From positions 88,412-152,411 of IMG/VR virus record IMGVR_UViG_3300046787_000438: a stretch of 64,000 nt of DNA; one strand, given 5' to 3'. Origin of the DNA: a virus. The notes under the pieces are model-generated. The model saw only the letters and a list, made by a program, of their open reading frames with translations. It was not told the origin of the DNA and made no database searches. Shown piece by piece: positions 20,235 to 33,843 of the stretch. A program made the translations under genes and the position numbers. Numbering within the stretch: the stretch's first letter is position 1; each line of letters opens with the position of its first letter.

Positions 20235-20235
20235 C

Positions 20236-20300
20236 TGTATTTATTTTTTGTCCAACACGCCGTAGTTCGTGTTGCGTAATGTTATACCCTTTGCTATAGT
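20236..20300 (+). promoter_or_regulatory. 17-mer TGTATTTATTTTTTGTC copy 1 + promoter
   Basis: motif 20236-20252; TTGCGT 20272, TATAGT 20295. Confidence 0.8.
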
Positions 20301-20329
20301 TGGATTACCAATAGAAAGGGGTTTCCCAA

Positions 20330-20848
20330 ATGGGAATGGATGTTTATGGCAAGAACCCAGTAAATGAAACTGGGCAATACTTCCGCCGAAATGTGTGGGG
20401 CTGGCATCCTCTATGGGGTTATGTGGAAGACACTTACCCAGAGATTGCCGAACTGGTCGAACACGCACACAGCAACGATGGCGATGGCTTGGGTGCGAGA
20501 AATGCTAAGAAGTTAGCGAAACTTTTGATGAGCGATTACGAAACTGGCAAAGCCAAGGAGTATGTCGAGGAACGCAACAAGGCTATTTCAGAGTTGCCTT
20601 TTGATGAGTGCCGTCTATGTGCTGGCACAGGTATTCGCACAGACGAGATTGCGGTAAATGCTGGTATGCCAACTCAAGAGTTGCGACCAGACATTGCGAT
20701 TATCGTTGGTCGAACTCACGGAACTTGTAATGCTTGTAGTGGCCTAGGTAAGACAGAGCCTTGGGCAAGCAACTACTACCTAGAGCCAGACGACATAAAA
20801 GAGTTTGCCGAGTTCCTAGTGAACTCTGGTGGATTTGAGATTTGCTAG
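20330..20848 (+). CDS. MGMD-family protein with DnaJ-type zinc-finger insert
   Basis: MGMDVYG, CRLCAGTG, CNACSGLG. Confidence 0.75.
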   Translation: MGMDVYGKNPVNETGQYFRRNVWGWHPLWGYVEDTYPEIAELVEHAHSNDGDGLGARNAKKLAKLLMSDYETGKAKEYVEERNKAISELPFDECRLCAGTGIRTDEIAVNAGMPTQELRPDIAIIVGRTHGTCNACSGLGKTEPWASNYYLEPDDIKEFAEFLVNSGGFEIC

Positions 20849-20913
20849 ACCCTGACTAAAAGTCAAACACCTGAGCCAAGTGTCTAAACTGGCTCATCTT
20901 TTTGATTGGAAGT

Positions 20914-21006
20914 TGTATTTATTTTTTGTCTACCCCCGAGGGGCGACACGCCGAAAAAGATTTTCATAGATAGATTTGACATTCCGTAAAAAGTTTGCTT
21001 TACTTT
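20914..21006 (+). promoter_or_regulatory. 17-mer copy 2 + promoter
   Basis: motif 20914-20930; TTGACA 20976. Confidence 0.75.
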
Positions 21007-21055
21007 ACTTACTGACCAAAAGGGCAGACACGACACACGAAAGGGGCTAGTCGAA

Positions 21056-21670
21056 ATGACTACCACAGCAACAGCAACACCAAAGATTGTAGGCAACGCA
21101 CTCTACCTAGAGTTGGTTGGCGACACTACTATGCCCGAGGACAAACTACGCCAAATGCTCGGGTGGCAACACAAGGGAACTAAGCAGGTTCTCATGTTCC
21201 CCGAGTATCAGGACGACATGGGCAAGACCCACAGCGCAGTCATTATGACCAGAGTTATCACAGAGAACTCCCCACGCGCTCAATGGGACATGAACTACAT
21301 GGCTCGCAATCGTCCGAAGCCACAGTTGGCAGATAACGATTCTTACTACGCCAACTACCCAGAATACAGCAACGCCGAGTGGGACGCACTAACAAGTCGT
21401 GAGCAGTTTGAGGCTCGTAAGCGTGCCATAGCAATCCTGCTCAAGAATGTAGTGCTTGACACTTACTACTCCGAGCCAGACGCAGAGGGCAATCGCACAA
21501 CGCTCGCAGGGCAGGGTTGGGTTGTTCGTGAGGGAAAACCAATCGCAGTTGAGATTACTGACCAAGACATGACAGAACTTCACAGCGACAGCAAAACTCC
21601 ACAGGCAGTTATTCGCCGAATCAACAAAGTTCGCACGACACTTGACAAGTTCCCAGCAAAACTTGTATAG
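21056..21670 (+). CDS. hypothetical protein
   Basis: SD GAAAGGGG. Confidence 0.75.
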   Translation: MTTTATATPKIVGNALYLELVGDTTMPEDKLRQMLGWQHKGTKQVLMFPEYQDDMGKTHSAVIMTRVITENSPRAQWDMNYMARNRPKPQLADNDSYYANYPEYSNAEWDALTSREQFEARKRAIAILLKNVVLDTYYSEPDAEGNRTTLAGQGWVVREGKPIAVEITDQDMTELHSDSKTPQAVIRRINKVRTTLDKFPAKLV

Positions 21671-21714
21671 TTTCTAATAGATACACACGACACGACACGA
21701 AAGGGGCGAAAGCC

Positions 21715-22779
21715 ATGTATCAGCAAAAAGTAGTAGCAGAACACACGAACCCAGACCTAGCAGGATTGGACTTCGACAAACTGGCAGAGGCGGTTTCTAG
21801 CGCAGTATCAAGCAAGGCGTTTGGAATCACAACTTCGGTGATTGACGACTTGCTAACTCCAGCAGGACGAGCAACTATCAGAGTAAAGACAGGGGCAAAG
21901 CCTACTTCACCTATCTCACTTGATTCTCTTGTAGAATCGAAAGAGGAAAAGGCAGAGGTAAGCATGGAACTTGGTGAAACACTTGAGGGCGCAGAATCAT
22001 ACGCTCGTCCAAATGGCGACTTGTATTATGGTCGCAAGTGGGGCGAAAATGTAGATGTCGAAGTTCTACGCAAAGCACGAGAAGCAGGTGCTTATGTCAT
22101 GTTGTATGGAGTCCCTGGAACTGGTAAGACCGCTATGGTCGAAGCCGCTTTTCCAGATGAACTTTACACAATCTTGGGTTCGGGCGACACAGAGGTTTCT
22201 GACTTGGTGGGTGGCTATGTCCAGACCCCGAGTGGCGGTTTTGAGTGGGTGGACGGAGTTTTGACTCGTTCGGCACTTGAGGGCAAAGTTCTACTGATTG
22301 ACGAGATTGGTCTGATTGACCCAAAGGTTCTTTCGGTGGTCTATGGTCTAATGGACGGCAGACGAGAACTGACCATTAGCGCAAACCCAGAGCGAGGCAC
22401 TATCAAAGCACAAGAGGGTTTTTATGTCGTGTCAGCGACTAACCCAAATGTCGCAGGTGTTCGCTTGTCAGAGGCACTTCTATCTCGCTTCGCCATTCAG
22501 GTCGAAATGACAACTGACTGGGCGTTGGCAAAGAAGTTGGGTGTTCCGCAGAGTGCCGTTGTCGCTTCACAGAACTTGGCAAAGAAAATGGAGAATGGCG
22601 AAACTTCATGGTCGCCACAGTTCCGAGAGTTGCTTGCGTTCAGGGACTTGTCAAAGTTGTTCGGAACGAAGTGGGCGGTTCAGAACTTGCTCGCTTCTGC
22701 CCCAGAGATTGACAGACCAGTTGCGTCAGATGTATTCACCCGAGTATTCGGAGAGGCGATTCTGCCAGCCAAGATTTAG
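21715..22779 (+). CDS. MoxR/CbbQ/CobS-like AAA+ ATPase
   Basis: Walker A GVPGTGKT, Walker B LLIDEI, SATNP, SEALLSRF. Confidence 0.92.
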   Translation: MYQQKVVAEHTNPDLAGLDFDKLAEAVSSAVSSKAFGITTSVIDDLLTPAGRATIRVKTGAKPTSPISLDSLVESKEEKAEVSMELGETLEGAESYARPNGDLYYGRKWGENVDVEVLRKAREAGAYVMLYGVPGTGKTAMVEAAFPDELYTILGSGDTEVSDLVGGYVQTPSGGFEWVDGVLTRSALEGKVLLIDEIGLIDPKVLSVVYGLMDGRRELTISANPERGTIKAQEGFYVVSATNPNVAGVRLSEALLSRFAIQVEMTTDWALAKKLGVPQSAVVASQNLAKKMENGETSWSPQFRELLAFRDLSKLFGTKWAVQNLLASAPEIDRPVASDVFTRVFGEAILPAKI

Positions 22780-22807
22780 TAGGTGGTCGTGTCCCTACTG
22801 AAACCCC

Positions 22808-22869
22808 GAGAGTAGCGCAAGAAAAATGTTTGCGAAAACACTTGCGCTACTCTCAAAAGGGTGTATAGT
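22808..22869 (+). promoter_or_regulatory. 14-bp inverted repeat overlapping the VWA-gene promoter
   Basis: GAGAGTAGCGCAAG (22808-22821) / CTTGCGCTACTCTC (22841-22854); TTGCGC..TATAGT. Confidence 0.65.
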
Positions 22870-22908
22870 TAGACATACAACAACAAAGCCAGATGAAAGG
22901 GAAAGCAA

Positions 22909-24774
22909 ATGGCACACTACAGTTCTAAGGGAAAATCAAGACTTACCAAGCGCACTAGCGCAACTCCGTCAGAGTGGTATCGTGTTTGCTCACAGATTGG
23001 TCGTCTAGTAAACGACTGGTCATGGAGAAGCGACCTTGCCGTTTATGGTGGCGAGGATTCATGCGAGGGTCGTGCGATAGCAGGATACTACGCCGAGATT
23101 GCCGAGATTGAGATAGATGTTCGCAAGGCGTTTGGAGAGGGCGTTAGCCCAGACTTCGTTGGCGACCTAAACGAAAAGGCAACTCGCTACGAGTTCCCAA
23201 TGGTTTCAGGAATCCTATTCCATGAGGCACTTCACGCTCGCCACACAGGCTGGGACACAGCCTACTTGTCAGAGCAGTTTGAGAACATAGAAGCACAGGC
23301 GTTCATGGCACTTGAGGAATCTCGTATCGAATCTCGTGGCGTGAAAGAGCGACCAGAGAATCGTTTGTTCCTACGCACTTCGGCGTTGGACATGGCACTT
23401 GAGGGCGTAAACGAATCAGCACTCGCAAAACTTGGTGGCGACAAATGGATTACAGCGAATCTCGCAACTCTATCTATCGCACGAGTGGACGCAGGTGTTC
23501 TTGAGGTTTCAGACATCAGCGAGATTTACAAAGAGGTTGTCAGCGTTCTTGGTCAAGACTTGTTTGACGAACTACGCAAAGTTTGGATTGCGTTTCAGGC
23601 ACTAGGCGTTCCACAGATTGACGAGGCGATTGCGCTCGCTAAGAAGTGGGTCGAACTTTTGCGTGAGGCAGACCCAGAGGGCGAGCCAAACAAGGACGAA
23701 GTTGGCGACCCATTCGCAGAGGAATCTGGCGAGGGTGAGGGCGAGGGCGAAAGCGAATCTGGCGAGGGCAAGGGCGAAATGTCAGAAGCCATGAAGCAGT
23801 TGGTTTCTAAACTTTCAGATTCAGCGAGCAAGACAGAAGCAAACGCAGAGCAAGCACTTGGCGACCAAGAGCGCAAAGAGAAGTGGGACGAGGAATCAAA
23901 GGCACGCCAGAGCGAAGCGCAGAAAAACAATCAGCGCAAGCAGGAAGCCAAAAAGATTTTCGACAAGAGCCACAACGAAAGTGGTTCTGGTTCTAACTCA
24001 CGAGTAAGCGAACGCCGAGTGCCAACTGGCGCAGAGCGAGCCAGCGCAGTCCAGATTGCTAAGGCGTTGGAAAAGGCGAAGTATCGTGAGCGTTCTGTCC
24101 ATGTTCGCAAGCACCAAGCACCACAGGGTCGCTTGATTGCTCGCAACGCAGTCCAGAACAAGGCTATGGAATCTATGGGATTGCGTGGCGAGTTGCCAGC
24201 GTGGAAGTCAAAGACACGCAAGCACACAGACGACCCAACTCTCAAGATTGGTGTCATGGTGGACATCTCTGGTTCTATGGGTTCGGCTATGGAATCTATG
24301 GGAACTACGGCTTGGGTTCTATCGGAAGCAGGTCGCCGAATCCAAGCGGAAACCGCTATGATTTACTACGGCTCGGGTGTCTTTTCAACTCTACGCCGAG
24401 GTCAGCGATTGAGCGAGGTTTCTATCTACACCGCACCAGACGGAACGGAAAAGTTTGCCGAGGCGTGGGAAGCACTTGACGGCGAACTCGGATTGACTTT
24501 CACAGACGGCGTGCGTTTGTTGGTAATCGTGTCGGACGGAAACTACACACCGAAGCAGACCGAGAGTGCCAAGCAGATTCTCCAAGAGTGTAAACGGAAC
24601 GGCGTGGCAGTCTTGTGGATTACCCCGAAAGATTGCTACTCGCTTGGGGCAAGGCACATCATCAACGGCTCGGGTTGGGGAATCCACTTGGATAACCTTG
24701 ACACGAATGAGATTGCTTCACTTGTCGGCAAGACGGCAAGCGAAGCGTTGGGTAAGGTCGGCTCGCTCATGTGA
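22909..24774 (+). CDS. CobT-like zincin + VWA domain protein
   Basis: HEALH...LEESRIE, acidic G/E linker, MIDAS DISGSM, IVSDG. Confidence 0.88.
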   Translation: MAHYSSKGKSRLTKRTSATPSEWYRVCSQIGRLVNDWSWRSDLAVYGGEDSCEGRAIAGYYAEIAEIEIDVRKAFGEGVSPDFVGDLNEKATRYEFPMVSGILFHEALHARHTGWDTAYLSEQFENIEAQAFMALEESRIESRGVKERPENRLFLRTSALDMALEGVNESALAKLGGDKWITANLATLSIARVDAGVLEVSDISEIYKEVVSVLGQDLFDELRKVWIAFQALGVPQIDEAIALAKKWVELLREADPEGEPNKDEVGDPFAEESGEGEGEGESESGEGKGEMSEAMKQLVSKLSDSASKTEANAEQALGDQERKEKWDEESKARQSEAQKNNQRKQEAKKIFDKSHNESGSGSNSRVSERRVPTGAERASAVQIAKALEKAKYRERSVHVRKHQAPQGRLIARNAVQNKAMESMGLRGELPAWKSKTRKHTDDPTLKIGVMVDISGSMGSAMESMGTTAWVLSEAGRRIQAETAMIYYGSGVFSTLRRGQRLSEVSIYTAPDGTEKFAEAWEALDGELGLTFTDGVRLLVIVSDGNYTPKQTESAKQILQECKRNGVAVLWITPKDCYSLGARHIINGSGWGIHLDNLDTNEIASLVGKTASEALGKVGSLM

Positions 24775-25025
24775 GTCCCTTGCCCTAACGGAGTGCCTAA
24801 CCGATTGGATTGAGCATAGTGCCAGACCCCCCTTACTGGTCGCTCTCCTAACGGACGGGACACTAGAAGCCCCTATCAACTCTTTCCCCCATTGGTTGGT
24901 AGGGGTTTCGCCATACCCAAGACGGATAGGTGCTTGCGTGGTATTAGCGTGCTAGGGATTGACGGCTCGTCAGAAGTTCTCGTGAAAAGCAGGTGACAGA
25001 CTTTTCTGATTTTCGAGCCAGAGGT

Positions 25026-25090
25026 TGTATTTATTTTTTGTCGAAAACTTCGTATCTTGATTTGACATGACTAAAAAAGTCAGGTAAGTT
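25026..25090 (+). promoter_or_regulatory. 17-mer copy 3 + promoter
   Basis: motif 25026-25042; TTGACA 25062, TAAGTT 25085. Confidence 0.8.
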
Positions 25091-25142
25091 TGGAACTACC
25101 AAACAGGGACGAACAAGAAGTAGTCCCAAAGGGGGTGTCAGA

Positions 25143-25481
25143 ATGGCAACAGCCACTAAGACCCAAGACCAGACCCAGACGAAAGTCTTGGTCAAAGTTT
25201 CACGCAAGTTCGTTGCTATGTTGGACGAACTCAAAGATGTTCGTGCTACTTACAATCAGGCAGACAAGCGTATTGCCGAACTGCGTAAGGACATCTTTGC
25301 CGTAGTTGGCGAACAAGCCCAGACTCTAACCCACAATGGGGTTGAGGTCGCCGTAATCGTTGCCCAGACCAAAGAGGTTGTGGACATGGACTTGCTGAAA
25401 GCCAACTTCCCAGAGGTGTATCAGGCTTGCCTAGTGAGCAAGACCCAATACCCTATTCGTGCGGTATCTCGCTCGAAGTAG
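25143..25481 (+). CDS. hypothetical protein, paralog of 33399-33743
   Basis: TLTHNG.E.A...VD...L...FPE.Y.AC shared. Confidence 0.75.
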   Translation: MATATKTQDQTQTKVLVKVSRKFVAMLDELKDVRATYNQADKRIAELRKDIFAVVGEQAQTLTHNGVEVAVIVAQTKEVVDMDLLKANFPEVYQACLVSKTQYPIRAVSRSK

Positions 25482-25486
25482 TCGAG

Positions 25487-25517
25487 AGGGGCAGGGGGAA
25501 ATCCTTGCCCCTTTTTT
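25487..25517 (+). terminator. intrinsic terminator
   Basis: GGGGCAGGG/CCTTGCCCC stem + T6. Confidence 0.75.
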
Positions 25518-25529
25518 CTGAAGCGAGTA

Positions 25530-25603
25530 TGTATTTATTTTTTGTCTGCGATTCCGACCCGCCGTCAAAAGTTGTGGCGAATGTCGCAACGCCGTAGTAA
25601 GTT
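25530..25603 (+). promoter_or_regulatory. 17-mer copy 4 + promoter
   Basis: motif 25530-25546; TGGCGA 25575, TAAGTT 25598. Confidence 0.75.
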
Positions 25604-25629
25604 AGAACTATAAGAAAGGGGAGTTCACA

Positions 25630-25965
25630 ATGAGTGAGCCATTAGAACTACAAGACATAGCAGGACTTAGCCTGACGATTATTGGCGTGTTGATTGAGAG
25701 TTATGTGAACGAGGGATACGCCGACCCAACAATGTATAAGGCGTTGTCTGCGACTGCCGAACTAGCAGAGCAGTTTCAGGCACGAGCAAAGTATGACAAC
25801 GCACCTAGCGATGTTGTCGAATCTATCGCCGACTTGCTAGTGAATCTCAAACTCACAGCGATTGAGTGCGGAGAAGTTGTAGAGCGAATCATCAAAGAGC
25901 AGGGAATCGAAGTCAAGGGCGATTGGTCTGCCCACACTTGCGACGACCCAGAACACGACCACTAG
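25630..25965 (+). CDS. hypothetical protein
   Basis: SD AGAAAGGGGAG. Confidence 0.75.
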   Translation: MSEPLELQDIAGLSLTIIGVLIESYVNEGYADPTMYKALSATAELAEQFQARAKYDNAPSDVVESIADLLVNLKLTAIECGEVVERIIKEQGIEVKGDWSAHTCDDPEHDH

Positions 25966-25974
25966 GAGAGAATC

Positions 25975-26277
25975 GTGAATCTAAACTTTAGAACTGCCCT
26001 CGGAGAAATCTTGCGAGAGAAGCGACACGAGTTAGGTCTGAACTTGCGTCAGGTTTCCAGCAAAGGTTTCGTGGCACTCGGATACTTGAGTGAAGTTGAG
26101 CGTGGACAGAAAGACGCTTCATCAGAAACTCTAGAAGCGATTGCTCAAGGCTTGGGCGTAGAAGTTTACGAACTTGTCGTAGAAGCAGGGTTGCGGATGG
26201 CAAATGCCCCAGACAGCCCAGAAAGTCTTTTCACTCGGAACGCCGATTGGTCAAAGCAATACGCCGACCTCTCATAG
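25975..26277 (+). CDS. XRE-family regulator, ClgR/PopR-like
   Basis: LGEILR..R...LRQVS....VALGYLSEVERGQKDASSE.L.AI. Confidence 0.85.
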   Translation: MNLNFRTALGEILREKRHELGLNLRQVSSKGFVALGYLSEVERGQKDASSETLEAIAQGLGVEVYELVVEAGLRMANAPDSPESLFTRNADWSKQYADLS

Positions 26278-26295
26278 CCCCGATAGCCACAACTC

Positions 26296-26331
26296 AAAGC
26301 CCCTAAGCAGATTGCTTGGGGGTTTTGTTTT
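26296..26331 (+). terminator. intrinsic terminator
   Basis: GCCCCTAAGCA/TGCTTGGGGGT stem + T tract. Confidence 0.75.
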
Positions 26332-26356
26332 GCCCGATTATTTTGCGCCGTGCGTC

Positions 26357-26430: not shown

Positions 26431-26457
26431 ATCGAACTATCAAAGAAAGGGGACAGA

Positions 26458-26712: not shown

Positions 26713-26713
26713 A

Positions 26714-27118: not shown

Positions 27119-27149
27119 TAGATTGTTCACAAAAGGAAGGGGTTCCCAA

Positions 27150-27829: not shown

Positions 27830-27851
27830 TCAATAAGAGATAGACCCCGTC

Positions 27852-27960
27852 AGCGATTAGCATTGACGCTAATCGCTTTCGGCTTGCTAGGGTTTATCCC
27901 CCTTTTCCCTAGCATGCGGGTAGCAGATTCCCCCCTTTTCTGCTACCCGCTTTTCTTTTT
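27852..27960 (+). ncRNA. three tandem hairpins with C-rich loops (candidate 3'UTR-derived sRNA/terminator)
   Basis: stems 27852-27877, 27886-27913, 27916-27950 + T tract. Confidence 0.45.
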
Positions 27961-27995
27961 GCCGTTTTGTTTTTCTTTTTTTTTGTTTTACAAAG

Positions 27996-28069
27996 TGTAT
28001 TTATTTTTTGTCTGTCAGATCAAAGCGCCGTTCGCAAAGGTGGAAAATGTCAGAGGATTTTAGTAAAGT
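27996..28069 (+). promoter_or_regulatory. 17-mer copy 7 + promoter
   Basis: motif 27996-28012; TGGAAA 28041, TAAAGT 28064. Confidence 0.75.
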
Positions 28070-28107
28070 TGTAGTAGTTGGAAGTTCCAACAGATAAGGG
28101 GGCAGAG

Positions 28108-28470
28108 ATGCCAAAGACAGCAGTCATTGTGACTACCAAGGCGGAGGTCAGCATTATTGACATTGCCGAAGGTTCACTAAAGAAATTACAAAGCGCCGTA
28201 GATGGCTTGATTCAGCCAATCGACCTAGACGCAAATGTGACTATGTGGGTGAACGAAGAGGGCTTGCTACGCAGTGACCTTGAGATGAACGACATTGCCA
28301 CAAGCCTTTACGCTCAAATGTATGACATCACTAACCCACTAATGGGAGATGTTGTCTTCACTGGTGGCACAGATGGAGAGGGCGAAACGCTCGGACTAGG
28401 CGACGACTATGTGAACGCAATCTACGCCCTAGTCGATAACTACAAACAGGTTATGTCGCAGTTCGCATAA
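28108..28470 (+). CDS. DUF3846-like protein
   Basis: LKKLQSAVDGLIQ, MWVNEEG, N.IAT.L, L.GDVVFTG. Confidence 0.8.
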   Translation: MPKTAVIVTTKAEVSIIDIAEGSLKKLQSAVDGLIQPIDLDANVTMWVNEEGLLRSDLEMNDIATSLYAQMYDITNPLMGDVVFTGGTDGEGETLGLGDDYVNAIYALVDNYKQVMSQFA

Positions 28471-28483
28471 CTAACAAAGACAC

Positions 28484-28516
28484 AGCCCCTCGCAGAAATG
28501 CGGGGGGTTTCTTTTT
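28484..28516 (+). terminator. intrinsic terminator
   Basis: CCCCTCGCA-GAAA-TGCGGGGGG + T tract. Confidence 0.75.
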
Positions 28517-28548
28517 ACCCTAAACAAAAACTTTACGCGCTCGCGGGG

Positions 28549-28623
28549 TGTATTTATTTTTTGTCAAGCTGCCGTATTATGCGCCGTGAAAAGTTTGCGC
28601 TTGTCAGAGGTTGGTGGTAGGTT
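28549..28623 (+). promoter_or_regulatory. 17-mer copy 8 + promoter
   Basis: motif 28549-28565; TTGCGC 28595, TAGGTT 28618. Confidence 0.8.
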
Positions 28624-28646
28624 TGGAACAAGGAAAGGGGACAGAG

Positions 28647-28883
28647 ATGTCAATGCTAAAGACTAAGAACTACAACGCAGAGTTTGCGTTCGAGCAAGTC
28701 ATTCGCCTAGTAGGTGGCGCAAGCGAGTATGGCGACAGCACCAAGGCTAGTATCTGGGCAGAGTGCCACAACAACGAAACTATCGAGATGTTGGCGGGTA
28801 TGTATCTGGTTGGTTCATCAGAGCGTGCGGAACGCAACCTTGCTCGTCTAAACGATAAGTTGCGACAGGTATTCGGTATCTAA
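28647..28883 (+). CDS. hypothetical protein
   Basis: SD GGAAAGGGG. Confidence 0.7.
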   Translation: MSMLKTKNYNAEFAFEQVIRLVGGASEYGDSTKASIWAECHNNETIEMLAGMYLVGSSERAERNLARLNDKLRQVFGI

Positions 28884-29230
28884 TGGCTATGACTTATCAA
28901 GAGCGTAAAGCCAAGGGCTTGCGACAGCGTGCGGAGTATCGTAATCGTCTACACCACGCAGAACACCTTGCCGTAATGTTTCGTGGGTTCGGTATTGGAT
29001 TTAGTTTTATTACAGTAATGACAGCCGTTGCTGGAGTTCACGGAACTTTAGCGATTGCGTTGTTCATTATGTTTATGTTGATTGCTGGTTCAGGTTTTAT
29101 TGGCGCAGAACACATTATGTTTTGGGCAGAGCAAAGCCGTTATCCAAAGAGTCGCCGTAGAACTTTACGAAGCGAGTTCGCAGATGAGTGGCGTAGATTT
29201 AGACAGTACCGAAAAGTAGAAAAGGGTTAG
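28883..29230 (+). CDS. two-TM membrane protein
   Basis: hydrophobic core; TAATG coupling. Confidence 0.7.
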   Translation: MAMTYQERKAKGLRQRAEYRNRLHHAEHLAVMFRGFGIGFSFITVMTAVAGVHGTLAIALFIMFMLIAGSGFIGAEHIMFWAEQSRYPKSRRRTLRSEFADEWRRFRQYRKVEKG

Positions 29231-29232
29231 AA

Positions 29233-29700
29233 GTGAAAATGGTAACGATAGGTGACTCGGTTGCCTCGCTAGAAGTTAGAAATAACGCAGACAATACTGG
29301 ACTAGAACTAGAAGTTTGGGTCACTAAGCGTGTTGGCTCGTTCTATGCTCTATTGGGCTACGGAGTATTCGGAGTGCCATTAGGCATGAGTGAAGTAGAT
29401 TTCTACACAGATACCCTATACCCGATTATGAAGAGCGCACCCCTCACCACAAGTCAGCCAAGCCGAATGGCGTTGGATTTTGATGGCTCTATGAAAAGAG
29501 CAGAGGCACACATAATCAGCCATAGAAACAACCACCCATTCTCAAATAAAACTCGGTCTGTATCCCCTGAAGAGGGCTTAGCAAAAATGCTAGGCGCAGG
29601 GGCAAAATACTTGACTATTTTGGCGGAGATAAATGGAGTTACGCCACGCACTATGGAAACTATGCGTAAGAGGTCAAAAGAGTATTACGCAAAACAATAA
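29233..29700 (+). CDS. hypothetical protein with C-terminal HTH-like segment
   Basis: ILAEINGVTPRTM. Confidence 0.65.
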   Translation: MKMVTIGDSVASLEVRNNADNTGLELEVWVTKRVGSFYALLGYGVFGVPLGMSEVDFYTDTLYPIMKSAPLTTSQPSRMALDFDGSMKRAEAHIISHRNNHPFSNKTRSVSPEEGLAKMLGAGAKYLTILAEINGVTPRTMETMRKRSKEYYAKQ

Positions 29701-29795
29701 GAGTTAGCCCCCCACTAACAAAAGCCCCCATTATGTTCATTCATAGTGGGGGTTTTGTTTTGCTCGAAGCGTTTTGTGTTTTTTTACACTCGCCG

Positions 29796-29879
29796 TGTAT
29801 TTATTTTTTGTCTATATGTGGGGCAACTTTTTACGGAGCGCCGTAAGATGTTTGATTTATTTGGTTTATAGGATACGAT
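29796..29879 (+). promoter_or_regulatory. 17-mer copy 9 + promoter
   Basis: motif 29796-29812; TTGATT 29852, TACGAT 29874. Confidence 0.8.
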
Positions 29880-29902
29880 TGAACTACATAGAAGGGGAGC
29901 AA

Positions 29903-30589
29903 ATGCTAGTAAACAACAAAATGATGTCTTATAGGACTACACCGACTGAAAAATTGCTGGGCACAGTAAACAAGTATGCCGTGATTGGCTACCTAGAGGG
30001 AATAAAGACTTTAGTTTCAGATAGCGAAACACTAATCAAGGCGCAGGAGCAGAAGTTCACTGACGCAATAGTAAAAGCGGAGGCGCAAGTTTCTGAGTGG
30101 GAAGCCGAGTATATTCAACTACATACAAAGGCATTGCGAGCAGAACTTAAGCGTAAACTCGAAGCACCGACCAGCGCTACTCATTGGCTGAGTGCCGAGG
30201 AGATTCGTCTGCCTATCAGAGATGAAGTAATCTCTAACGAGATTGCTGAACTTTTAAAGCGCCGCCCTGATTATCGAACTTATCAGATTGCTAGGGGAGA
30301 TGTCGGAGCGCCTCATGACATTCAGTATTCTAGAGCGTGGAGCAAAGGCAATAAGACTTTGGTAGGTATAAATAGACTCACCACGCGCCGTGTGGAGCAG
30401 TGGCAAGCCTCACTAGATAGTCTGATTTCTGACCTAAAGGATAGAAACAAGCAAGAAGTTTACATAGCGCAGGTTATGGAACTCAAGCGCACCACAGCAA
30501 CTATTCTTGCGAACTGGGGTATAGATACCACCAAGACTGAGCGCAAGGACAGGGATAAACCAAAGCCACGAAGCAAAACTAAAAAGTAA
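29903..30589 (+). CDS. hypothetical coiled-coil protein
   Basis: SD GAAGGGGAG before ATG 29903. Confidence 0.7.
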   Translation: MLVNNKMMSYRTTPTEKLLGTVNKYAVIGYLEGIKTLVSDSETLIKAQEQKFTDAIVKAEAQVSEWEAEYIQLHTKALRAELKRKLEAPTSATHWLSAEEIRLPIRDEVISNEIAELLKRRPDYRTYQIARGDVGAPHDIQYSRAWSKGNKTLVGINRLTTRRVEQWQASLDSLISDLKDRNKQEVYIAQVMELKRTTATILANWGIDTTKTERKDRDKPKPRSKTKK

Positions 30590-30602
30590 CAACCAAAGAC
30601 CC

Positions 30603-30636
30603 AAGCCCCGCTAGATTTCTGGCGGGGTTTCTTTTT
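30603..30636 (+). terminator. intrinsic terminator
   Basis: CCCCGCTAGA/TCTGGCGGGG + T tract. Confidence 0.75.
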
Positions 30637-30649
30637 ATCGTGCTATTCG

Positions 30650-30724
30650 TGTATTTATTTTTTGTCTGAAGCCCGCCGCAACTTTTGATGAGAGTTGCGA
30701 AGTGTCACAGACCTAGGGTAAGAT
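30650..30724 (+). promoter_or_regulatory. 17-mer copy 10 + promoter
   Basis: motif 30650-30666; TTGCGA 30695, TAAGAT 30719. Confidence 0.75.
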
Positions 30725-30752
30725 TTAAGTATCAAAGAAAGGGGAAGCGATT

Positions 30753-30968
30753 ATGGCAAAGCCAAGCGTTTCAGCAGTAAAAGAATGGGACACAGTTTAC
30801 GAGAGTGACCTAGTCGAACTCGCAGTAGGGACAGCAGTATTTGCCGAGGACTACTGGCGTATGACGAATGTTGTTACTGGCAAGAAGAAGTATTTCTATG
30901 GCGAACTTGCGTGGGCAGATTCACGCCGAGAAGCAAGCGACCTAGACTTTGAGGCGTGGAACGTATGA
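30753..30968 (+). CDS. hypothetical protein
   Basis: SD AGAAAGGGG; KKKYFYGE.AW.D..R. Confidence 0.7.
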   Translation: MAKPSVSAVKEWDTVYESDLVELAVGTAVFAEDYWRMTNVVTGKKKYFYGELAWADSRREASDLDFEAWNV

Positions 30969-31138
30969 ACGAGTTGAAGCGTTGCCCAAAGTGCGCTGGA
31001 CACATTCCGAACAACAAGACCCCTGGGGCATACCCTGGTGCGATTTCACGCCGAGACAACACGACAGAGATTTGTTCAGCGTGCGGAACAATGGAAGCGC
31101 TGGAAGATTTCTTTGAGCGTGAAAAGGTTGGTGCGTAA
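30965..31138 (+). CDS. small zinc-finger protein
   Basis: CPKC...YPGAISRRDN.TEICSACG..EA. Confidence 0.75.
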   Translation: MNELKRCPKCAGHIPNNKTPGAYPGAISRRDNTTEICSACGTMEALEDFFEREKVGA

Positions 31139-31281
31139 TGGCAACAACCTTAGAGCAGACAACTTGCTACAAGTGCGAAGCCGAGATTGAGGCAGAGGTT
31201 GGGCAGGTTCACCCTTTGTGTTCAGAGTGCCAAGACGATTTCGATAGTTGGTTCAATAGCCAGTTAGGAATGTTCAAGTGA
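31138..31281 (+). CDS. small zinc-finger protein (not in ORF track)
   Basis: TAATG coupling; CYKC...HPLCSEC. Confidence 0.65.
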   Translation: MATTLEQTTCYKCEAEIEAEVGQVHPLCSECQDDFDSWFNSQLGMFK

Positions 31282-31481
31282 GCAAGCAAGTATTTTTTGT
31301 TATTGGCGTTGATTTAGATGACAAAGAGGTTTTTATCGCAGATGACACTTATTCAGCGCGGTTCAGCGAAGACGAGCAAGTCTGGGACACCGACATAAAC
31401 GAATGGGTTGAAGATGAAGATAGGAAACACTATCTTGACGCATTAGACCTTTTGAACAATAAAAAGTTAGCAAGAGATTAG
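31278..31481 (+). CDS. acidic hypothetical protein
   Basis: GTGA coupling. Confidence 0.65.
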   Translation: MSKQVFFVIGVDLDDKEVFIADDTYSARFSEDEQVWDTDINEWVEDEDRKHYLDALDLLNNKKLARD

Positions 31482-31569
31482 ATTTCTGCCCCCCCCCCCT
31501 AAAAGAAAAAGCGCTCGCCGAAAGGGGGGCGTTTTTTTTTGCGTGCGGGAGATTTATTCGAGTCCCGTG

Positions 31570-31643
31570 TGTATTTATTTTTTGTCGAAGTTTAGGGGAG
31601 CGCCGTTGAGGAGTTTGCGTTTATCGTTGGTTGCTTGTATAGT
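31570..31643 (+). promoter_or_regulatory. 17-mer copy 11 + promoter
   Basis: motif 31570-31586; TTGCGT 31615, TATAGT 31638. Confidence 0.8.
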
Positions 31644-31687
31644 TATAGATGTCAGGAAAACTTGACACTAAGTAGGGAGATAGAAAA

Positions 31688-31912
31688 ATGAAGTTTTACA
31701 TTCGCAGAGCAGTAGTCGGAGTTATCGCAGTTCCAGTTGTCGCAGGTCTTTACACTTTTGCTTACCTATGGTTGGTAATCGCAGGGGGAGAGCCTAACGT
31801 TTCAAGTGAAGAAGTATTCAACAATGGGTTGTGGCTAGGCGCGTTGATTGCCGTAATGCTTACATTCTCACCGCAGGTTTCTAAGTTGCTAAACAGAATT
31901 GTGGGTGCGTAA
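31688..31912 (+). CDS. two-TM membrane protein
   Basis: hydrophobic helices; SD GGGAG. Confidence 0.7.
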   Translation: MKFYIRRAVVGVIAVPVVAGLYTFAYLWLVIAGGEPNVSSEEVFNNGLWLGALIAVMLTFSPQVSKLLNRIVGA

Positions 31913-32058
31913 TGAGCAACGCCGATTGGGCATTATTGTTTGGAGTAGTGAGCCTATCAGTTGGTTCATTCCTATTAGGTTTCGTGATTAGCGGATTGCC
32001 AAAGCGTGAGGGTCGTAATGGTCGCCACGCAAATGGCAGGGGTCGCCACACGAGTTAG
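31912..32058 (+). CDS. small membrane protein with GRH repeats (not in ORF track)
   Basis: TAATG coupling; TM helix then GRNGRHANGRGRH. Confidence 0.6.
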   Translation: MSNADWALLFGVVSLSVGSFLLGFVISGLPKREGRNGRHANGRGRHTS

Positions 32059-32157
32059 AGTTGTCCCCCTACAACAAAATAAGAAACCTCACGAGTGTTC
32101 ATTCCTCGTGGGTTTTCTTTTTGTTTGGGTTGGCGTTCGTTGTTTTTTTCTGCCGAG

Positions 32158-32242
32158 TGTATTTATTTTTTGTCGCGCTCGCTGCGGGCAACAACTCGCC
32201 GTTCGTGAAAAGTTTGGGAATGTCGTAGGTAGTTAGTAAAAT
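32158..32242 (+). promoter_or_regulatory. 17-mer copy 12 + promoter
   Basis: motif 32158-32174; TTGGGA 32214, TAAAAT 32237. Confidence 0.8.
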
Positions 32243-32283
32243 AGAACTATCCCAAAAGGGACAAAAGGAAAAGGGGAAACAGA

Positions 32284-32616
32284 ATGTCAAGAGTTGCTAA
32301 CTATCAGATAAATGGTTTGATTCAAAAGTTTCAAGAGTTTGTGAACTACAACGGAACTATTACTGCCGAGATAGATGACAAGGGGATTTACCGTATTACG
32401 CATTGGCGAACTACTATCCTCGAATACGATGTCTACAACCACCAGATTGTTTCGCTAACATACGGATACATTAGCCAGACAACCAGCACACTAGTCGGTC
32501 GTATCTTGCGCTCGCTACCGCAACCAGCCGTTGAGAACTATCTAGGCTATTTCTCACCGTCAGCCGAGAAGCGTCGCTTAGTGAAGATGTTGAACACTAG
32601 GGCTTACGCCTACTAA
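32284..32616 (+). CDS. hypothetical phage protein
   Basis: SD AAAGGGG; Y.SQTTS motif. Confidence 0.7.
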   Translation: MSRVANYQINGLIQKFQEFVNYNGTITAEIDDKGIYRITHWRTTILEYDVYNHQIVSLTYGYISQTTSTLVGRILRSLPQPAVENYLGYFSPSAEKRRLVKMLNTRAYAY

Positions 32617-32692
32617 CCACCAATACAAAGAAGCACCCGTCAGAAGTGGCGGGTGTTTTTTTATTTGTGCGGGAGATTTGTTTGCCGCAGCG

Positions 32693-32776
32693 TGTATTTA
32701 TTTTTTGTCTGAGGTGCGACACGGTTCGTGAAAAGTTTGGAATACGATTTGACTTTTGGTTCGATAGCGATAAACT
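32693..32776 (+). promoter_or_regulatory. 17-mer copy 13 + promoter
   Basis: motif 32693-32709; TTGACT 32749, TAAACT 32771. Confidence 0.8.
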
Positions 32777-32825
32777 TGAGTTATCAAGTAAACCGCTTGA
32801 TAGAGAAAGATAAAGGGGATACAAA

Positions 32826-33077
32826 ATGTCAGCAGTTCTAACCACCCAGAACATCGTTACCGTAGTTGCTAAGGTCGTAGACATCAACACAGGCGAAACC
32901 ATTGAGCCAGTTTACGAAGCATACGGATACGAGAAGTTTCAGGAGTTCGTGGACTTTTACCGCAAGCAGAACTACATCAACAAGATTGTTTGGGTTCGTG
33001 GCTTTGGATACAACGACGAGAACGGCGCAAGCCAAGTTCTAGCAACCGAGTTCGTTGGCGTTGGAAGTTTCGAGTAA
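32826..33077 (+). CDS. hypothetical protein
   Basis: SD AAAGGGG. Confidence 0.7.
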   Translation: MSAVLTTQNIVTVVAKVVDINTGETIEPVYEAYGYEKFQEFVDFYRKQNYINKIVWVRGFGYNDENGASQVLATEFVGVGSFE

Positions 33078-33190
33078 TGGAGACCCTAGAGAGCCTACTA
33101 GAGGGGGTAGCGTTTGAGATTGAGAACGAAACAGGAATACCGATAGAGGTTATCTTTGAGGGAAACCTAATCACCATCAAGCAAGGCTAA
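33077..33190 (+). CDS. small acidic protein
   Basis: TAATG coupling; METLESLLEGVAFEIE... Confidence 0.5.
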   Translation: METLESLLEGVAFEIENETGIPIEVIFEGNLITIKQG

Positions 33191-33200
33191 CCACAGAGAG

Positions 33201-33237
33201 AAGCCCCCAAGCCGAAAGGCTAGGGGGTCTTTCTTTT
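33201..33237 (+). terminator. intrinsic terminator
   Basis: GCCCCCAAGCC-GAAA-GGCTAGGGGGT + T tract. Confidence 0.75.
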
Positions 33238-33273
33238 GCCGTAGTTGGCTTTGGCGTTTTTTGTTCCCGTGCC

Positions 33274-33348
33274 TGTATTTATTTTTTGTCGAAACCGACA
33301 CGCCCAGCCGTAAAAAGATTTGACTTATTTTGGAATAGCGTTTAGGCT
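33274..33348 (+). promoter_or_regulatory. 17-mer copy 14 + promoter
   Basis: motif 33274-33290; TTGACT 33320, TAGGCT 33343. Confidence 0.8.
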
Positions 33349-33398
33349 GATTACATCAGCAAAAGTTGATACACACAAAAAGAAAAAGGGGCTACAAA

Positions 33399-33743
33399 AT
33401 GACCACCACCACCACCCAGAACGCAACCACCACCAAGGCAACCAAGGTTGTTCTTGAGCAGGTAAAGCAGTTGGTCGAAGTTCGTGCCGAGATTGCTCGC
33501 CTAGAGAAGATGAAGGTCGCATTGACCTCCCAGATTGAGGGCGTGTTTGGTGTAGACAAGGAAGCCAAGACTGCCGAGTTCACTACCTTGACCCACAACG
33601 GCATTGAGTTTGCTCGCATTGACCTACGCACTCGCAAGGGTGTAGATACCGAGAAACTTGCCGTAGAGTTCCCAGAAGCCTACGAGGCTTGCTTTGACCC
33701 AGAGATGACCAAGTATTTCCAGATTGTGAGCCTCTACAAGTAA
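33399..33743 (+). CDS. hypothetical protein, paralog of 25143-25481
   Basis: SD AAAGGGG; TLTHNGIEFA...FPEAYEAC. Confidence 0.75.
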   Translation: MTTTTTQNATTTKATKVVLEQVKQLVEVRAEIARLEKMKVALTSQIEGVFGVDKEAKTAEFTTLTHNGIEFARIDLRTRKGVDTEKLAVEFPEAYEACFDPEMTKYFQIVSLYK

Positions 33744-33756
33744 GCCACTAGCCAAG

Positions 33757-33789
33757 AAGCCCCTGCCGTTAGTTCGGTAGGGGTTTTTT
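33757..33789 (+). terminator. intrinsic terminator
   Basis: CCCCTGCCG/CGGTAGGGG + T6. Confidence 0.75.
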
Positions 33790-33826
33790 GCTTGCCGAGG
33801 CACTTGATTGGTGTCAAGGGGGGCTA

Positions 33827-33843
33827 GACAGAAAATAAATACA
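33827..33843 (-). promoter_or_regulatory. inverted 17-mer copy (1 mismatch)
   Basis: GACAGAAAATAAATACA = reverse complement TGTATTTATTTTCTGTC. Confidence 0.7.

What the first reader, a model, noticed from the sequence alone, without database searches (positions are those of the whole stretch)
20236..33843. 14 modular early cassettes, each headed by an identical 17-mer that is helically phased to the promoter
Seen: TGTATTTATTTTTTGTC occurs exactly at 20236, 20914, 25026, 25530, 26357, 27044, 27996, 28549, 29796, 30650, 31570, 32158, 32693 and 33274. Every copy is on +, intergenic, and ahead of a SigA-type promoter and a purine-rich (mostly AAAGGGG) RBS; most follow a terminator hairpin. Gaps from motif end to my assigned -35 are 19, (45), 19, 28, 29, 29, 28, 29, 39, 28, 28, 39, 39, 29, i.e. 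steps of one helical turn in 13 of 14 cases (a few -35 calls are weak). An inverted one-mismatch copy at 33827 closes the array, 9 bp from a minus-strand TTGACA. Inference: a face-of-helix-dependent activator or UP/bend element drives a dedicated early regulon. The identical boxes could also seed recombination that swaps the gene cassettes.
Basis: partly seen in the sequence, partly recalled or inferred. Interest (0 to 1): 0.9.

Follow-up and report, generated by a model that had tools for sequence, protein, structure and literature searches.

The report
Invariant box heading phage early cassettes
An uncultured 152-kb phage of actinobacteria heads each of 14 small early operons with the same 17-base box at a set distance upstream of an ordinary host-type promoter; related phages keep the layout but each lineage has its own box version, the boxes are where cassettes are gained and lost, and the array fills a 14-kb stretch stripped of restriction-type palindromes.

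Summary
TGTATTTATTTTTTGTC occurs 14 times exactly, all on the + strand and intergenic. There are also a one-mismatch inverted copy at 33827 and a missed one-mismatch copy at 17411 inside a gene. None occurs elsewhere in the 152-kb genome.

In relatives one spacing dominates (26-30 bp), and the side classes are less cleanly 10-bp phased.

Related phage contigs keep terminator-box-promoter-RBS cassettes but carry lineage-specific boxes (GTATTTATTTTTT, TAGTTATTTTTT, GTATCCACTTTTT, GTATTCATTTTTT). Between close relatives the box core is about 100% conserved and the flanks about 91%.

At least four cassette insertions/deletions between close relatives are bounded by boxes; three, checked base by base, switch homology inside the box.

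The array coincides exactly with an island 10-50-fold depleted of 4- and 6-bp palindromes, here and in four relatives.

Best reading: a protein-recognition box that co-regulates a first-expressed host-takeover compartment of the SPO1/T5 kind, and doubles as a recombination joint like T4 PeSLs. The binding protein and the direction of regulation are not shown. The candidate is a small Xis/MerR-like protein at 13747-13983.

The parts
20236..34420 (+). The island: 14 box-headed operons plus a non-coding border. It is depleted 10-50-fold of nine 4-bp palindromes and of nearly all 6-bp palindromes.
   Evidence: Palindrome density falls at about 20230 (the first box) and recovers at about 34420. The same coincidence of box array and palindrome-poor stretch is seen in G001, G002, G004 and G005.
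20236..20300 (+). Cassette 1: box 20236-20252, gap 19, -35 TTGCGT at 20272, -10 TATAGT; gene 20330-20848
20914..21004 (+). Cassette 2: box, gap 45, TTGACA/TTTACT; genes 21056-21670, 21715-22779 (AAA ATPase) and 22909-24774
   Evidence: In orthologues of this cassette the gap varies from 35 to 51.
25026..25090 (+). Cassette 3: box, gap 19, TTGACA/TAAGTT; gene 25143-25481. The whole cassette is absent from near-relative L139, with the junction inside the box.
25530..25603 (+). Cassette 4: box, gap 28, TGGCGA/TAAGTT; genes 25630-25965 and 25975-26277 (XRE-type HTH)
26357..26430 (+). Cassette 5: box, gap 29, TTGCCA/TATAGT; genes 26458-26712 and 26660-26950
27044..27118 (+). Cassette 6: box, gap 29, TTGCGG/TATGAT; genes 27150-27539 and 27539-27829
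27996..28069 (+). Cassette 7: box, gap 28, TGGAAA/TAAAGT; gene 28108-28470 (DUF3846)
28549..28623 (+). Cassette 8: box, gap 29, TTGCGC/TAGGTT; genes 28647-28883, 28883-29230 and 29233-29700
29796..29879 (+). Cassette 9: box, gap 39, TTGATT/TACGAT; gene 29903-30589
30650..30724 (+). Cassette 10: box, gap 28, TTGCGA/TAAGAT; four small genes in 30753-31481
31570..31643 (+). Cassette 11: box, gap 28, TTGCGT/TATAGT; genes 31688-31912 and 31912-32058
32158..32242 (+). Cassette 12: box, gap 39, TTGGGA/TAAAAT; gene 32284-32616
32693..32776 (+). Cassette 13: box, gap 39, TTGACT/TAAACT; gene 32826-33077
33274..33348 (+). Cassette 14: box, gap 29, TTGACT/TAGGCT; gene 33399-33743
33827..33843 (-). Inverted one-mismatch box (TGTATTTATTTTCTGTC) after the last terminator. 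No promoter partner was found. Conserved in L139 and, as TGTATTTATTTTTTGTA, at the array end of G001.
33844..34480 (.). Non-coding, C/A-rich border with repeats ((CACACAT)n and CATAG-type repeats). The cumulative GC-skew maximum lies here. It is a possible analogue of the repeat-rich border of the T5 first-step-transfer region.
   Evidence: Not followed further.
17411..17427 (+). Near-box (one mismatch) inside the endolysin-like gene 16947-17798, encoding DVVIFC. It is box-like only in the two type-A genomes, through their codon choice, and no promoter follows it.
13747..13983 (+). Candidate box-binding protein: a 78-aa Xis/MerR-type winged helix-turn-helix, encoded outside the island
   Evidence: Pfam HTH_17 and PHROG 'excisionase and transcriptional regulator'. 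The AlphaFold2 model has pLDDT 91, and the nearest solved structures are Pukovnik Xis, RacA and BldC. A homologue is present in 12 of 13 box-bearing loci with upstream coverage and in 1 of 31 box-less loci. Binding is not shown.

Best explanation
The 17-mer is the invariant core of a composite regulatory cassette: terminator, box, SigA-type promoter, strong RBS. This cassette heads each of the 14 operons of a roughly 14-kb compartment of small, mostly orphan genes. The compartment is stripped of restriction-type palindromes, which is what selection does to phage DNA that meets host restriction before the phage can protect itself. [quoted passage not shown]

The box itself is most likely the recognition site of one sequence-specific DNA-binding protein. 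It is asymmetric: a base-specific 5' half (GTA-N3-A) is followed by a T5-6 tract that all lineages keep. It sits at a preferred position centred about 72 bp upstream of the predicted start, or about one turn nearer or farther. Through it the whole set of promoters would be switched together.

I favour stimulation of RNA polymerase from an upstream, face-dependent position (class-I-like). The boxed promoters have weaker -35 hexamers than the box-less ones, and the site does not overlap the polymerase footprint. Coordinated shut-off is the main alternative direction of regulation.

Because the box is the longest stretch that all cassettes share exactly, it is also where cassettes recombine, so the compartment behaves as an exchange platform for orphan genes.

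Shown: copy number, position, spacing, lineage-specific variants, purifying selection on the box, box-to-box indel junctions, and the coincidence with the palindrome-poor island. Inferred: protein binding, the binder's identity (candidate at 13747-13983), the direction of regulation, and the timing.
For: Fourteen exact copies occur only in this region of the genome.

The same architecture is found in 20 or more related contigs, with boxes confined to one 13-15-kb region and oriented with the genes.

The box variants are lineage-wide. Copies within a genome agree, and genomes differ at positions 5, 6, 7, 9, 15 and 16.

The box is under purifying selection. In 52 orthologous box pairs between close relatives, positions 3-15 are about 100% identical, while the flanks are about 91% identical.

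Spacing to the -35 is tight: the mode is 26-30 bp in 86 promoters, and G000 has 19/28-29/39. The distance to the terminator (17-45 nt) and to the start codon (77-125 nt) is looser.

The promoter-family scan gives 24 hits, all on the + strand; 14 are boxed and 10 are not. The boxed promoters have weaker -35 hexamers, 4.1 against 5.1 matches of 6 (p = 0.026), with equal -10 hexamers.

The island of palindrome depletion starts at box 1 and ends about 580 bp after the inverted box, and the same holds in four relatives. In T5-like phages, restriction acts only through sites in the first-transferred region (PMC10644984).

Box-to-box cassette indels have their junctions in the box, and cassette order is permuted between relatives.

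No phage RNA polymerase, sigma region 2, integrase or resolvase was found.
Against: The covariation search found no DNA-binding protein whose recognition residues change with the box type. The candidate's recognition helix, KTIYNWI, is invariant across types.

Its co-occurrence with boxes is confounded by phylogeny, and there are two exceptions: L175 has the protein but no box, and L174 has boxes but no detected homologue.

If the island really enters and acts first, a regulator encoded outside it cannot be the initial activator.

One contig (L134/L167) mixes two box types, so recognition may be looser than the within-genome invariance suggests.

Helical phasing is not clean in relatives.

The comparison of -35 strength is biased, because the scanning matrix was trained on boxed promoters.
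Confidence: 0.5

Rival explanations
1. The box acts directly on host RNA polymerase or on DNA shape, as a displaced UP-like element for the alpha C-terminal domain or as an intrinsically bent T-tract. It would make these promoters very strong, as described for upstream A/T-rich DNA at SPO1 and T5 early promoters, with no dedicated binding protein.
For: The box is A/T-rich, and its T5-6 tract is kept in every variant. It lies upstream of the -35 at a preferred distance, with side classes about one turn away in G000. A second A-tract sits directly upstream of the -35, in the consensus AAAnGAtTTGc. For first-expressed genes only host components are available. The literature parallels (UP-element consensus, curved DNA upstream of SPO1 promoters) are from my own knowledge.
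Against: The box is invariant at 13-17 positions within a genome, and close relatives show about 0.3% change in the core against about 9% in the flanks. Lineage-wide replacements put G or C inside the box (GTATCCAC, TAGTTAT). The box centre lies near -72, not at -40 to -60. All of this indicates more information than shape or alpha-domain contacts are known to need.
Confidence: 0.15
2. The box is a stoperator-like or shut-off operator. A phage repressor made after the pre-early phase (or an immunity-type protein) binds the asymmetric sites and silences or insulates all island operons at once. This would resemble the monomeric repressor of Cluster A mycobacteriophages, or the A1-dependent shut-off of T5 pre-early genes.
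For: The sites are asymmetric, multi-copy and oriented with transcription, as stoperators are (PMC9283540). The host is actinobacterial: the phage has two WhiB genes. The candidate binder at 13747 lies outside the island, so it would be made later. Pre-early classes are known to need active shut-off (PMC10644984).
Against: The sites lie about 28 bp upstream of the -35, not over the promoter or inside transcription units, and each already follows a strong terminator. They are confined to one island rather than spread over the genome. No integrase was found, so there is no evidence of lysogeny. The fixed distance to the promoter is not required for a roadblock.
Confidence: 0.15
3. The box exists mainly as a recombination joint, a short homology or the target of an unknown recombinase. 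It would make the island an integron-like or PeSL-like platform for swapping orphan genes, with no direct role in transcription.
For: Indel junctions lie in the box in three pairs of relatives checked base by base, and box-bounded indels are seen in further pairs. Cassette order is permuted and cassettes are gained and lost. Tandem boxes occur in L130, L132 and L136. T4-type PeSLs are a precedent (PMC2839356).
Against: There is no integrase or resolvase, and the box is not palindromic like attC. Evolvability alone does not explain about 100% conservation of the core at orthologous sites, nor the sharp edges of identity. It also does not explain the preferred distance to the -35. Recombination at the longest shared identity is expected as a by-product.
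Confidence: 0.12
4. The box is itself a promoter for a phage-specific polymerase or sigma factor, like the long invariant promoters of T7-type phages that also differ between related phages. It would give a second, later round of transcription of the same cassettes.
For: It is a long, invariant, asymmetric, lineage-specific motif placed after terminators and ahead of genes. The 198-aa protein at 38251-38847 has a sigma region-4-like HTH.
Against: No T7-type polymerase or sigma region 2 was found, and the large proteins examined are structural, replication or metabolic; the T7 family search had no positive control. The box is 77-125 nt from the start codons, with a good SigA-type promoter in between. 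The two HTHs of the region-4-like protein do not vary with box type.
Confidence: 0.05

Closest known systems
PeSL (promoter-early stem-loop) mobile regulatory cassettes of T4-type phages (Arbiol et al. 2010, PMC2839356; Comeau et al. 2014, PMC4122927)
   Same: Both are conserved composite intergenic units that join a host-type early promoter, an A/T-rich upstream part, a terminator stem-loop and an SD. Both flank small orphan genes in a plastic region. In both, insertions, deletions and replacements between close relatives have their crossovers inside the unit.
   Different: Here the hosts are actinobacteria and there is no sequence homology to PeSLs. The stem-loop always lies upstream of the promoter. 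A separate, exactly invariant 13-17-bp box sits about 28 bp upstream of the -35 and changes as a block between lineages; nothing like it is described for PeSLs. The crossovers fall in this box. Mini-circles were not tested.
[quoted passage not shown] 1998, cited in PMC6873191)
   Same: Both are regions of about 12-14 kb holding two to three dozen small early genes in many short operons, with promoters and ribosome-binding sites typical of highly expressed genes, in a phage of 130-150 kb.
   Different: As far as I know, no invariant upstream box and no palindrome purge is described for SPO1. Whether the island here is a terminal repeat cannot be told from a circular assembly with a 127-bp overlap. 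There is no protein homology.
First-step-transfer (pre-early) region of T5-like phages (PMC10644984; bioRxiv 10.1101/866236)
   Same: Both make up about 8-9% of the genome and hold pre-early-type small genes. Restriction can only act through sites in that region, which matches the palindrome purge limited to the island. Both end in a repeat-rich non-coding border.
   Different: Two-step injection, terminal repeats and an injection stop signal are untested here. The T5 region has two divergent transcription units, not 14 co-oriented box-headed cassettes. The T5 border carries DnaA boxes, whereas only the type-C box variant resembles a DnaA box.
Class I activator sites (CRP at -61.5, -71.5, -82.5, -92.5) and phi29 p4 at -82 (own knowledge)
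   Same: The predicted box centres are near -63, -72/-73 and -83 (one at -89). They are upstream of, and do not overlap, a promoter with a sub-optimal -35, and they sit at about one-turn steps in this genome.
   Different: CRP and p4 sites are inverted repeats bound by dimers, whereas this box is asymmetric. No protein, no contact with the alpha subunit and no transcription start is known here. The phasing is looser in relatives.
Stoperators of Cluster A mycobacteriophages (PMC9283540, PMC6550527)
   Same: Both have many copies of an asymmetric 13-bp-class site, oriented with transcription, in short intergenic spaces of an actinobacteriophage, with site variants that differ between related phages.
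   Different: Stoperators are spread over the whole genome and act on elongation for an immunity repressor of temperate phages. Here the sites are confined to one island and always lie at a set distance upstream of a promoter, and no integrase was found.

Membership tests
PeSL-type mobile regulatory cassette (kind, not homology) | Conserved composite intergenic unit with a host-type early promoter and a terminator stem-loop | tested here: met
   Promoter matrix. Hairpin plus T-run upstream of 12 of 14 boxes.
PeSL-type mobile regulatory cassette (kind, not homology) | Flanks small orphan genes in a plastic region | tested here: met
   Most cassette proteins have no Pfam or PHROG match. Cassette content and order differ between relatives.
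PeSL-type mobile regulatory cassette (kind, not homology) | Indels between close relatives with the crossover inside the unit | tested here: met
   G000/L139, L130/L140 and L135/L169 were shown base by base.
PeSL-type mobile regulatory cassette (kind, not homology) | Circular excision products (mini-circles) | not testable with these tools
   Needs inverse PCR or long reads from infected cells or virions.
T5-like first-step-transfer / pre-early region | Avoidance of restriction sites limited to this segment | tested here: met
   Nine 4-bp palindromes are at 0-0.3 per kb in the island against 2.6-7.2 per kb elsewhere, and 6-bp palindromes number 0-8 per 2 kb against about 31 expected. Four relatives show the same.
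T5-like first-step-transfer / pre-early region | Lies in a long terminal repeat and enters the cell first, in a separate step | not testable with these tools
   The assembly closes on a 127-bp overlap, and no reads were available.
SPO1-like host-takeover module | Many short operons of small early genes, each with a strong SigA promoter, a terminator and a strong RBS | tested here: met
SPO1-like host-takeover module | Gene products shut off host functions | not testable with these tools
   The proteins are orphans. One AAA ATPase, one XRE HTH and one DUF3846 are the only annotations.
Class I (upstream, face-dependent) activator site | Site centres spaced by whole helical turns from the promoter | tested here: inconclusive
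   G000 has gaps of 19, 28/29 and 39 in 13 of 14 cassettes. Pooled relatives show a strong mode at 26-30 plus classes at 13-19, 35-36, 39-40 and 45-51, and the periodicity of the non-modal gaps is only about the 95th percentile of a null.
Class I (upstream, face-dependent) activator site | A protein binds the site and contacts RNA polymerase | not testable with these tools
   There is only a candidate, the 78-aa winged HTH at 13747-13983.
UP element | Degenerate A/T-rich DNA directly upstream of the -35 (-40 to -60) | tested here: not met
   The box centre is near -72. It is invariant within genomes and has G/C-containing lineage variants. A separate A-tract does abut the -35.
Stoperator system (Cluster A mycobacteriophages) | Asymmetric sites oriented with transcription, in many copies | tested here: met
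Stoperator system (Cluster A mycobacteriophages) | Sites spread across the genome within transcription units; temperate phage with an immunity repressor | tested here: not met
   The sites occur only in one island, each upstream of a promoter. No integrase was found.
T7-type phage polymerase promoters | The phage encodes its own RNA polymerase | tested here: inconclusive
   PF00940 gave no match, but the control search rang nowhere. The large proteins examined are structural, replication or metabolic.
Integron attC cassettes | Tyrosine recombinase and imperfectly palindromic attC sites | tested here: not met
   No Phage_integrase or Resolvase domain, and the box is not palindromic.

The most novel reading that the evidence does not exclude
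A family of large uncultured actinophages keeps a T5-like, restriction-proof, first-acting genome compartment. All of its operons would be switched through one lineage-specific asymmetric operator placed about 72 bp upstream of each promoter. That operator would be read by a small Xis/MerR-type phage protein, or by a protein delivered with the DNA. The same operator serves as the joint at which orphan-gene cassettes are exchanged, so a single short sequence would couple regulation, compartment identity and gene flux.
Probability: 0.3. Interest if true: 0.8.

Novelty: new variant of a known kind. Interest (0 to 1): 0.62.

Why it matters
Arrays of self-contained early cassettes are known from SPO1, T5 and T4-type phages. 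How a whole class of such promoters is switched together, and why the cassettes shuffle so freely, is poorly understood.

This finding offers a short, exactly defined cis element with natural specificity variants (at least five box types), and a clear comparative signal of selection on it. It also offers direct evidence that the element is the crossover point, and a sharply bounded palindrome-free compartment that marks the DNA most exposed to host restriction.

That gives direct experiments: swap box types, test the candidate protein, and map genome ends and transcription starts. The group in question, large phages of abundant freshwater actinobacteria, has almost no experimental biology. The cassettes are also a ready list of candidate host-takeover and anti-defence genes.

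Tried and rejected
- Exact 17-mer scans of IMG/VR and of 185,579 species genomes gave only single chance hits in A/T-rich DNA, with no second array.
- Megablast of the array against INPHARED phages found no match.
- An Rfam scan of the window found no family.
- The generic promoter/terminator scanner found no more sites than in shuffles. I replaced it with my own matrices and folding.
- I looked for a DNA-binding protein that changes with box type by ranking all G000 proteins by excess identity to the other type-A genome. The top ranks went to tail proteins, an acidic 93-aa protein, a zinc-finger protein and the HTH proteins. None has recognition residues that track the box, and clade II phages with nearly the same box have very different versions.
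- An inverted repeat upstream of 13747 resembles the 3' half of the box. It turned out to be a hairpin kept by compensatory changes in relatives, not an operator.
- DnaA-box reading: type C (GTATCCACT) matches TTATCCACA at 7 of 9 positions, but types A and B do not.
- A minus-strand promoter at the inverted box is not supported.
- The XRE protein at 25975 is an unlikely reader: it is most divergent in the relative with the same box type, and its family binds palindromes.

Full report
**1. Observation**

The 17-mer TGTATTTATTTTTTGTC occurs exactly 14 times on the + strand at the stated coordinates. At up to three mismatches there are 16 sites against 0.18 expected.

The window is the last 64 kb of a 152,411-bp IMG/VR phage contig that closes on a 127-bp overlap. 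The motif occurs nowhere else in that genome.

The 14 exact copies are intergenic. Twelve follow a strong hairpin plus T-run that ends 17-45 nt upstream. The copy at 17411 lies inside a conserved endolysin-like gene and encodes DVVIFC. It is box-like only in the two genomes with this box type, through their codon choice, and no promoter follows it.

**2. Promoters and spacing**

These are 19, 45, 19, 28, 29, 29, 28, 29, 39, 28, 28, 39, 39, 29.

The learned promoter consensus is AAAnGAtTTGc, a 17-bp spacer, then tGnTAnGnT. If transcription starts about 7 nt after the -10, the box centres fall near -63, -72/-73, -83 and -89.

Pooling 86 confident promoters gives one dominant spacing, 26-30 bp with a peak at 27. 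Side classes lie at 13-19, 35-36, 39-40 and 45-51. The periodicity of the non-modal gaps reaches only about the 95th percentile of a null.

So a preferred distance is robust. Strict one-turn phasing holds in this genome and in its type-A relative, but not generally. The ortholog of cassette 2 has gaps from 35 to 51.

The distance from the box to the terminator (17-45 nt) and to the start codon (77-125 nt) is much looser. The box therefore belongs with the promoter.

**3. The box marks a subset of promoters**

Scanning the whole genome with the learned matrix gives 24 hits. All are on the + strand, between genome positions 70.8 and 124.4 kb. Fourteen have a box and ten do not.

Boxed promoters have weaker -35 hexamers than box-less ones, 4.1 against 5.1 matches of 6 (one-sided p = 0.026), and equal -10 hexamers. 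The caveat is that the matrix was trained on boxed promoters.

**4. Relatives**

I found related contigs through the 621-aa protein and the AAA ATPase of cassette 2. They keep the same layout of terminator, box, 20-45 bp, promoter, AAAGGGG-type RBS and gene, often at syntenic positions.

Each lineage has its own box:
- Type A: TGTATTTATTTTTTGT
- Type A': nGTATTTATTTTTTCT
- Type B: nRTAGTTATTTTTTCTG
- Type C: nGTATCCACTTTTT
- Type D: GTATTCATTTTTT
- Type E: ATTTTTCATTTTTTCC

The common core is TA-N3-A-N-TTTTT. In every contig searched as a whole, the 14-19 boxes lie in one 13-15-kb region and are oriented with the genes; a reversed control pattern gave no hits.

More distant relatives lack the box. 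They have other stereotyped promoter or RBS motifs instead. One contig (L134/L167) mixes types D and C.

**5. Selection on the box**

In 52 orthologous box pairs between close relatives, positions 3-15 of the box are about 100% identical. The positions just outside are 75-92% identical, and the flanks average 91%. The identity has sharp edges, which argues for selection on the sequence itself rather than recent duplication or conversion.

**6. Recombination**

Comparing G000 with the 88-96%-identical L139 shows that cassette 3 is absent from L139. Homology to the left flank ends at the end of box 25026-25042, and homology to the right flank begins at the start of box 25530.

The same pattern is seen for a 644-bp cassette in L130 against L140 and for a 528-bp cassette in L169 against L135. 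Further box-bounded indels separate L130, L137 and L140. Cassette order in the middle of the array is permuted between genomes, while both ends stay syntenic.

No integrase or resolvase is encoded. This is what was shown for the PeSL cassettes of T4-type phages (PMC2839356).

**7. The compartment**

In 2-kb windows the ratio of observed to expected 4-bp palindromes is 0.18-0.44 across the array and about 0.75-1.25 elsewhere. Six-base palindromes number 0-14 against about 31 expected.

The depletion starts at about 20230, which is box 1. It ends at about 34420, which is 580 bp past the inverted box.

AATT, ACGT, AGCT, ATAT, GATC, GGCC, GTAC, TGCA and TTAA are 10-50-fold depleted in the island. 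CTAG, GCGC and TCGA are tolerated. In G001, G002, G004 and G005 the box array and the palindrome-poor stretch coincide in the same way.

In T5-like phages, restriction systems can act only through sites in the first-step-transfer region, which carries the pre-early genes. That region is followed by a repeat-rich non-coding border (PMC10644984; bioRxiv 10.1101/866236). Here the island makes up 9% of the genome. It holds about 30 small, mostly orphan genes and ends in a 640-bp C/A-rich repeat region.

The SPO1 host-takeover module is a second close parallel. It is about 12 kb of terminal DNA with 26 small early genes in short operons, with strong promoters and ribosome-binding sites (PMC6873191). 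I therefore read the array as the first-exposed, first-expressed compartment. Whether it is a terminal repeat cannot be told from this assembly.

**8. What reads the box**

The genome has two WhiB genes, so the host is actinobacterial. It has no sigma region 2, no T7-type polymerase (that search had no positive control) and no HU. The large proteins I examined are structural, replication or metabolic.

Ranking all proteins by excess identity to the other type-A genome gave no DNA-binding protein whose recognition residues follow the box type.

The best lead comes from phyletic pattern. A 78-aa protein at 13747-13983 is present in 12 of 13 box-bearing loci with upstream coverage, but in only 1 of 31 box-less loci. 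Some of those box-less loci have an ATPase as close to the query's as that of box-bearing clade II.

The protein is an Xis/MerR-type winged helix-turn-helix:
- Pfam HTH_17 and the PHROG family 'excisionase and transcriptional regulator'.
- An AlphaFold2 model with pLDDT 91.
- Nearest solved structures: Pukovnik Xis, RacA and BldC.

Members of that fold bind asymmetric sites as monomers or as head-to-tail arrays (own knowledge). That suits a box made of a base-specific half plus a T-tract.

There are weaknesses. The co-occurrence rests on very few independent evolutionary events. There are two exceptions, L174 and L175. The recognition helix is invariant across box types. The gene also lies outside the island, so if the island acts first this protein can only act later.

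**9. Verdict**

The most likely account is a protein-recognition box that co-regulates a pre-early, restriction-proof host-takeover compartment from a preferred upstream position, and that doubles as the joint for cassette exchange. Its direction of action (stimulation is favoured, shut-off is possible) and its reader are inferred, not shown.

It is a new variant of a known kind: early cassette arrays of the PeSL, SPO1 and T5 type. The new features are the exactly invariant, lineage-specific upstream box and its coincidence with a sharply bounded palindrome-free island.

Noticed in passing
window 20230-34420 (genome 108.6-122.8 kb); also G001 60-72 kb, G002 0-14 kb, G004 46-62 kb, G005 12-26 kb: The box array coincides exactly with an island 10-50-fold depleted of nine 4-bp palindromes and nearly free of 6-bp palindromes. 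CCGG is absent from the whole genome.
   Followed up: yes
window 33844-34480: A 640-bp non-coding, C/A-rich stretch with (CACACAT)n and CATAG-type repeats lies between the inverted box and the next gene. The cumulative GC-skew maximum of the window lies here. It could be a genome end, an origin or an injection-stop-like border.
   Followed up: partly
window 13560-13746 and the same place in L171, L167, L162, L169, L170, L163: The leader of the 78-aa HTH gene holds two conserved hairpins. One keeps its stem by compensatory changes around a GGGAGAG loop. The other is a hairpin plus U-run immediately before the RBS. It looks like an attenuator or other RNA switch.
   Followed up: partly
window 17411-17427: A near-box sits inside an endolysin-like gene. 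The conserved peptide DVVIFC is encoded box-like (15-16 of 17 bases) only in the two type-A genomes, and relatives with other box types use different codons.
   Followed up: yes
window 20984, 25562, 28584, 32203, 32726, 33308 (minus-strand matches) and 17187-18652 (+): A second motif, CCGTnAAAAGTT, abuts the -35 of many boxed promoters. Its complement AACTTTTAACGG recurs inside coding sequence upstream of the island (peptide TFNG). There are 16 matches against 1.2 expected.
   Followed up: partly
L134/L167 (IMGVR_UViG_3300022827_000009): One relative carries both type D (GTATTCATTTTTT) and type C (GTATCCACTTTTT) boxes in the same array, which looks like an intermediate or recombinant state.
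   Followed up: no
L182-L185, L204, L206-L210; L222-L224; L214-L216, L219: More distant relatives lack the box. Instead they repeat other stereotyped motifs 10-19 times per 20 kb: CCTGATATAATAGTAC (an extended -10), AGTAAAAAGTAAAAA and GAGGTAAAAAAT.
   Followed up: no
window 35444-35950 and 38251-38847: These are two paralogous-looking proteins, each with two HTH motifs. One has a sigma region-4 match at the Pfam cut-off. Both are highly conserved across box types, which makes them candidates for late regulators.
   Followed up: partly
window 14037-14714: An HNH endonuclease gene with no homologue in any relative sits directly after the 78-aa HTH gene. It is probably a homing insertion.
   Followed up: no
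genome 21275-21733 and about 60.9-61.2 kb (outside the window): There are two WhiB-family genes. One is fused to a C-terminal zinc-ribbon-like domain.
   Followed up: partly
L130 7973/8004, L132 4716/4733, L136 7308/7326: Tandem double boxes, 17-31 bp apart, lie ahead of the first cassette in several relatives.
   Followed up: no
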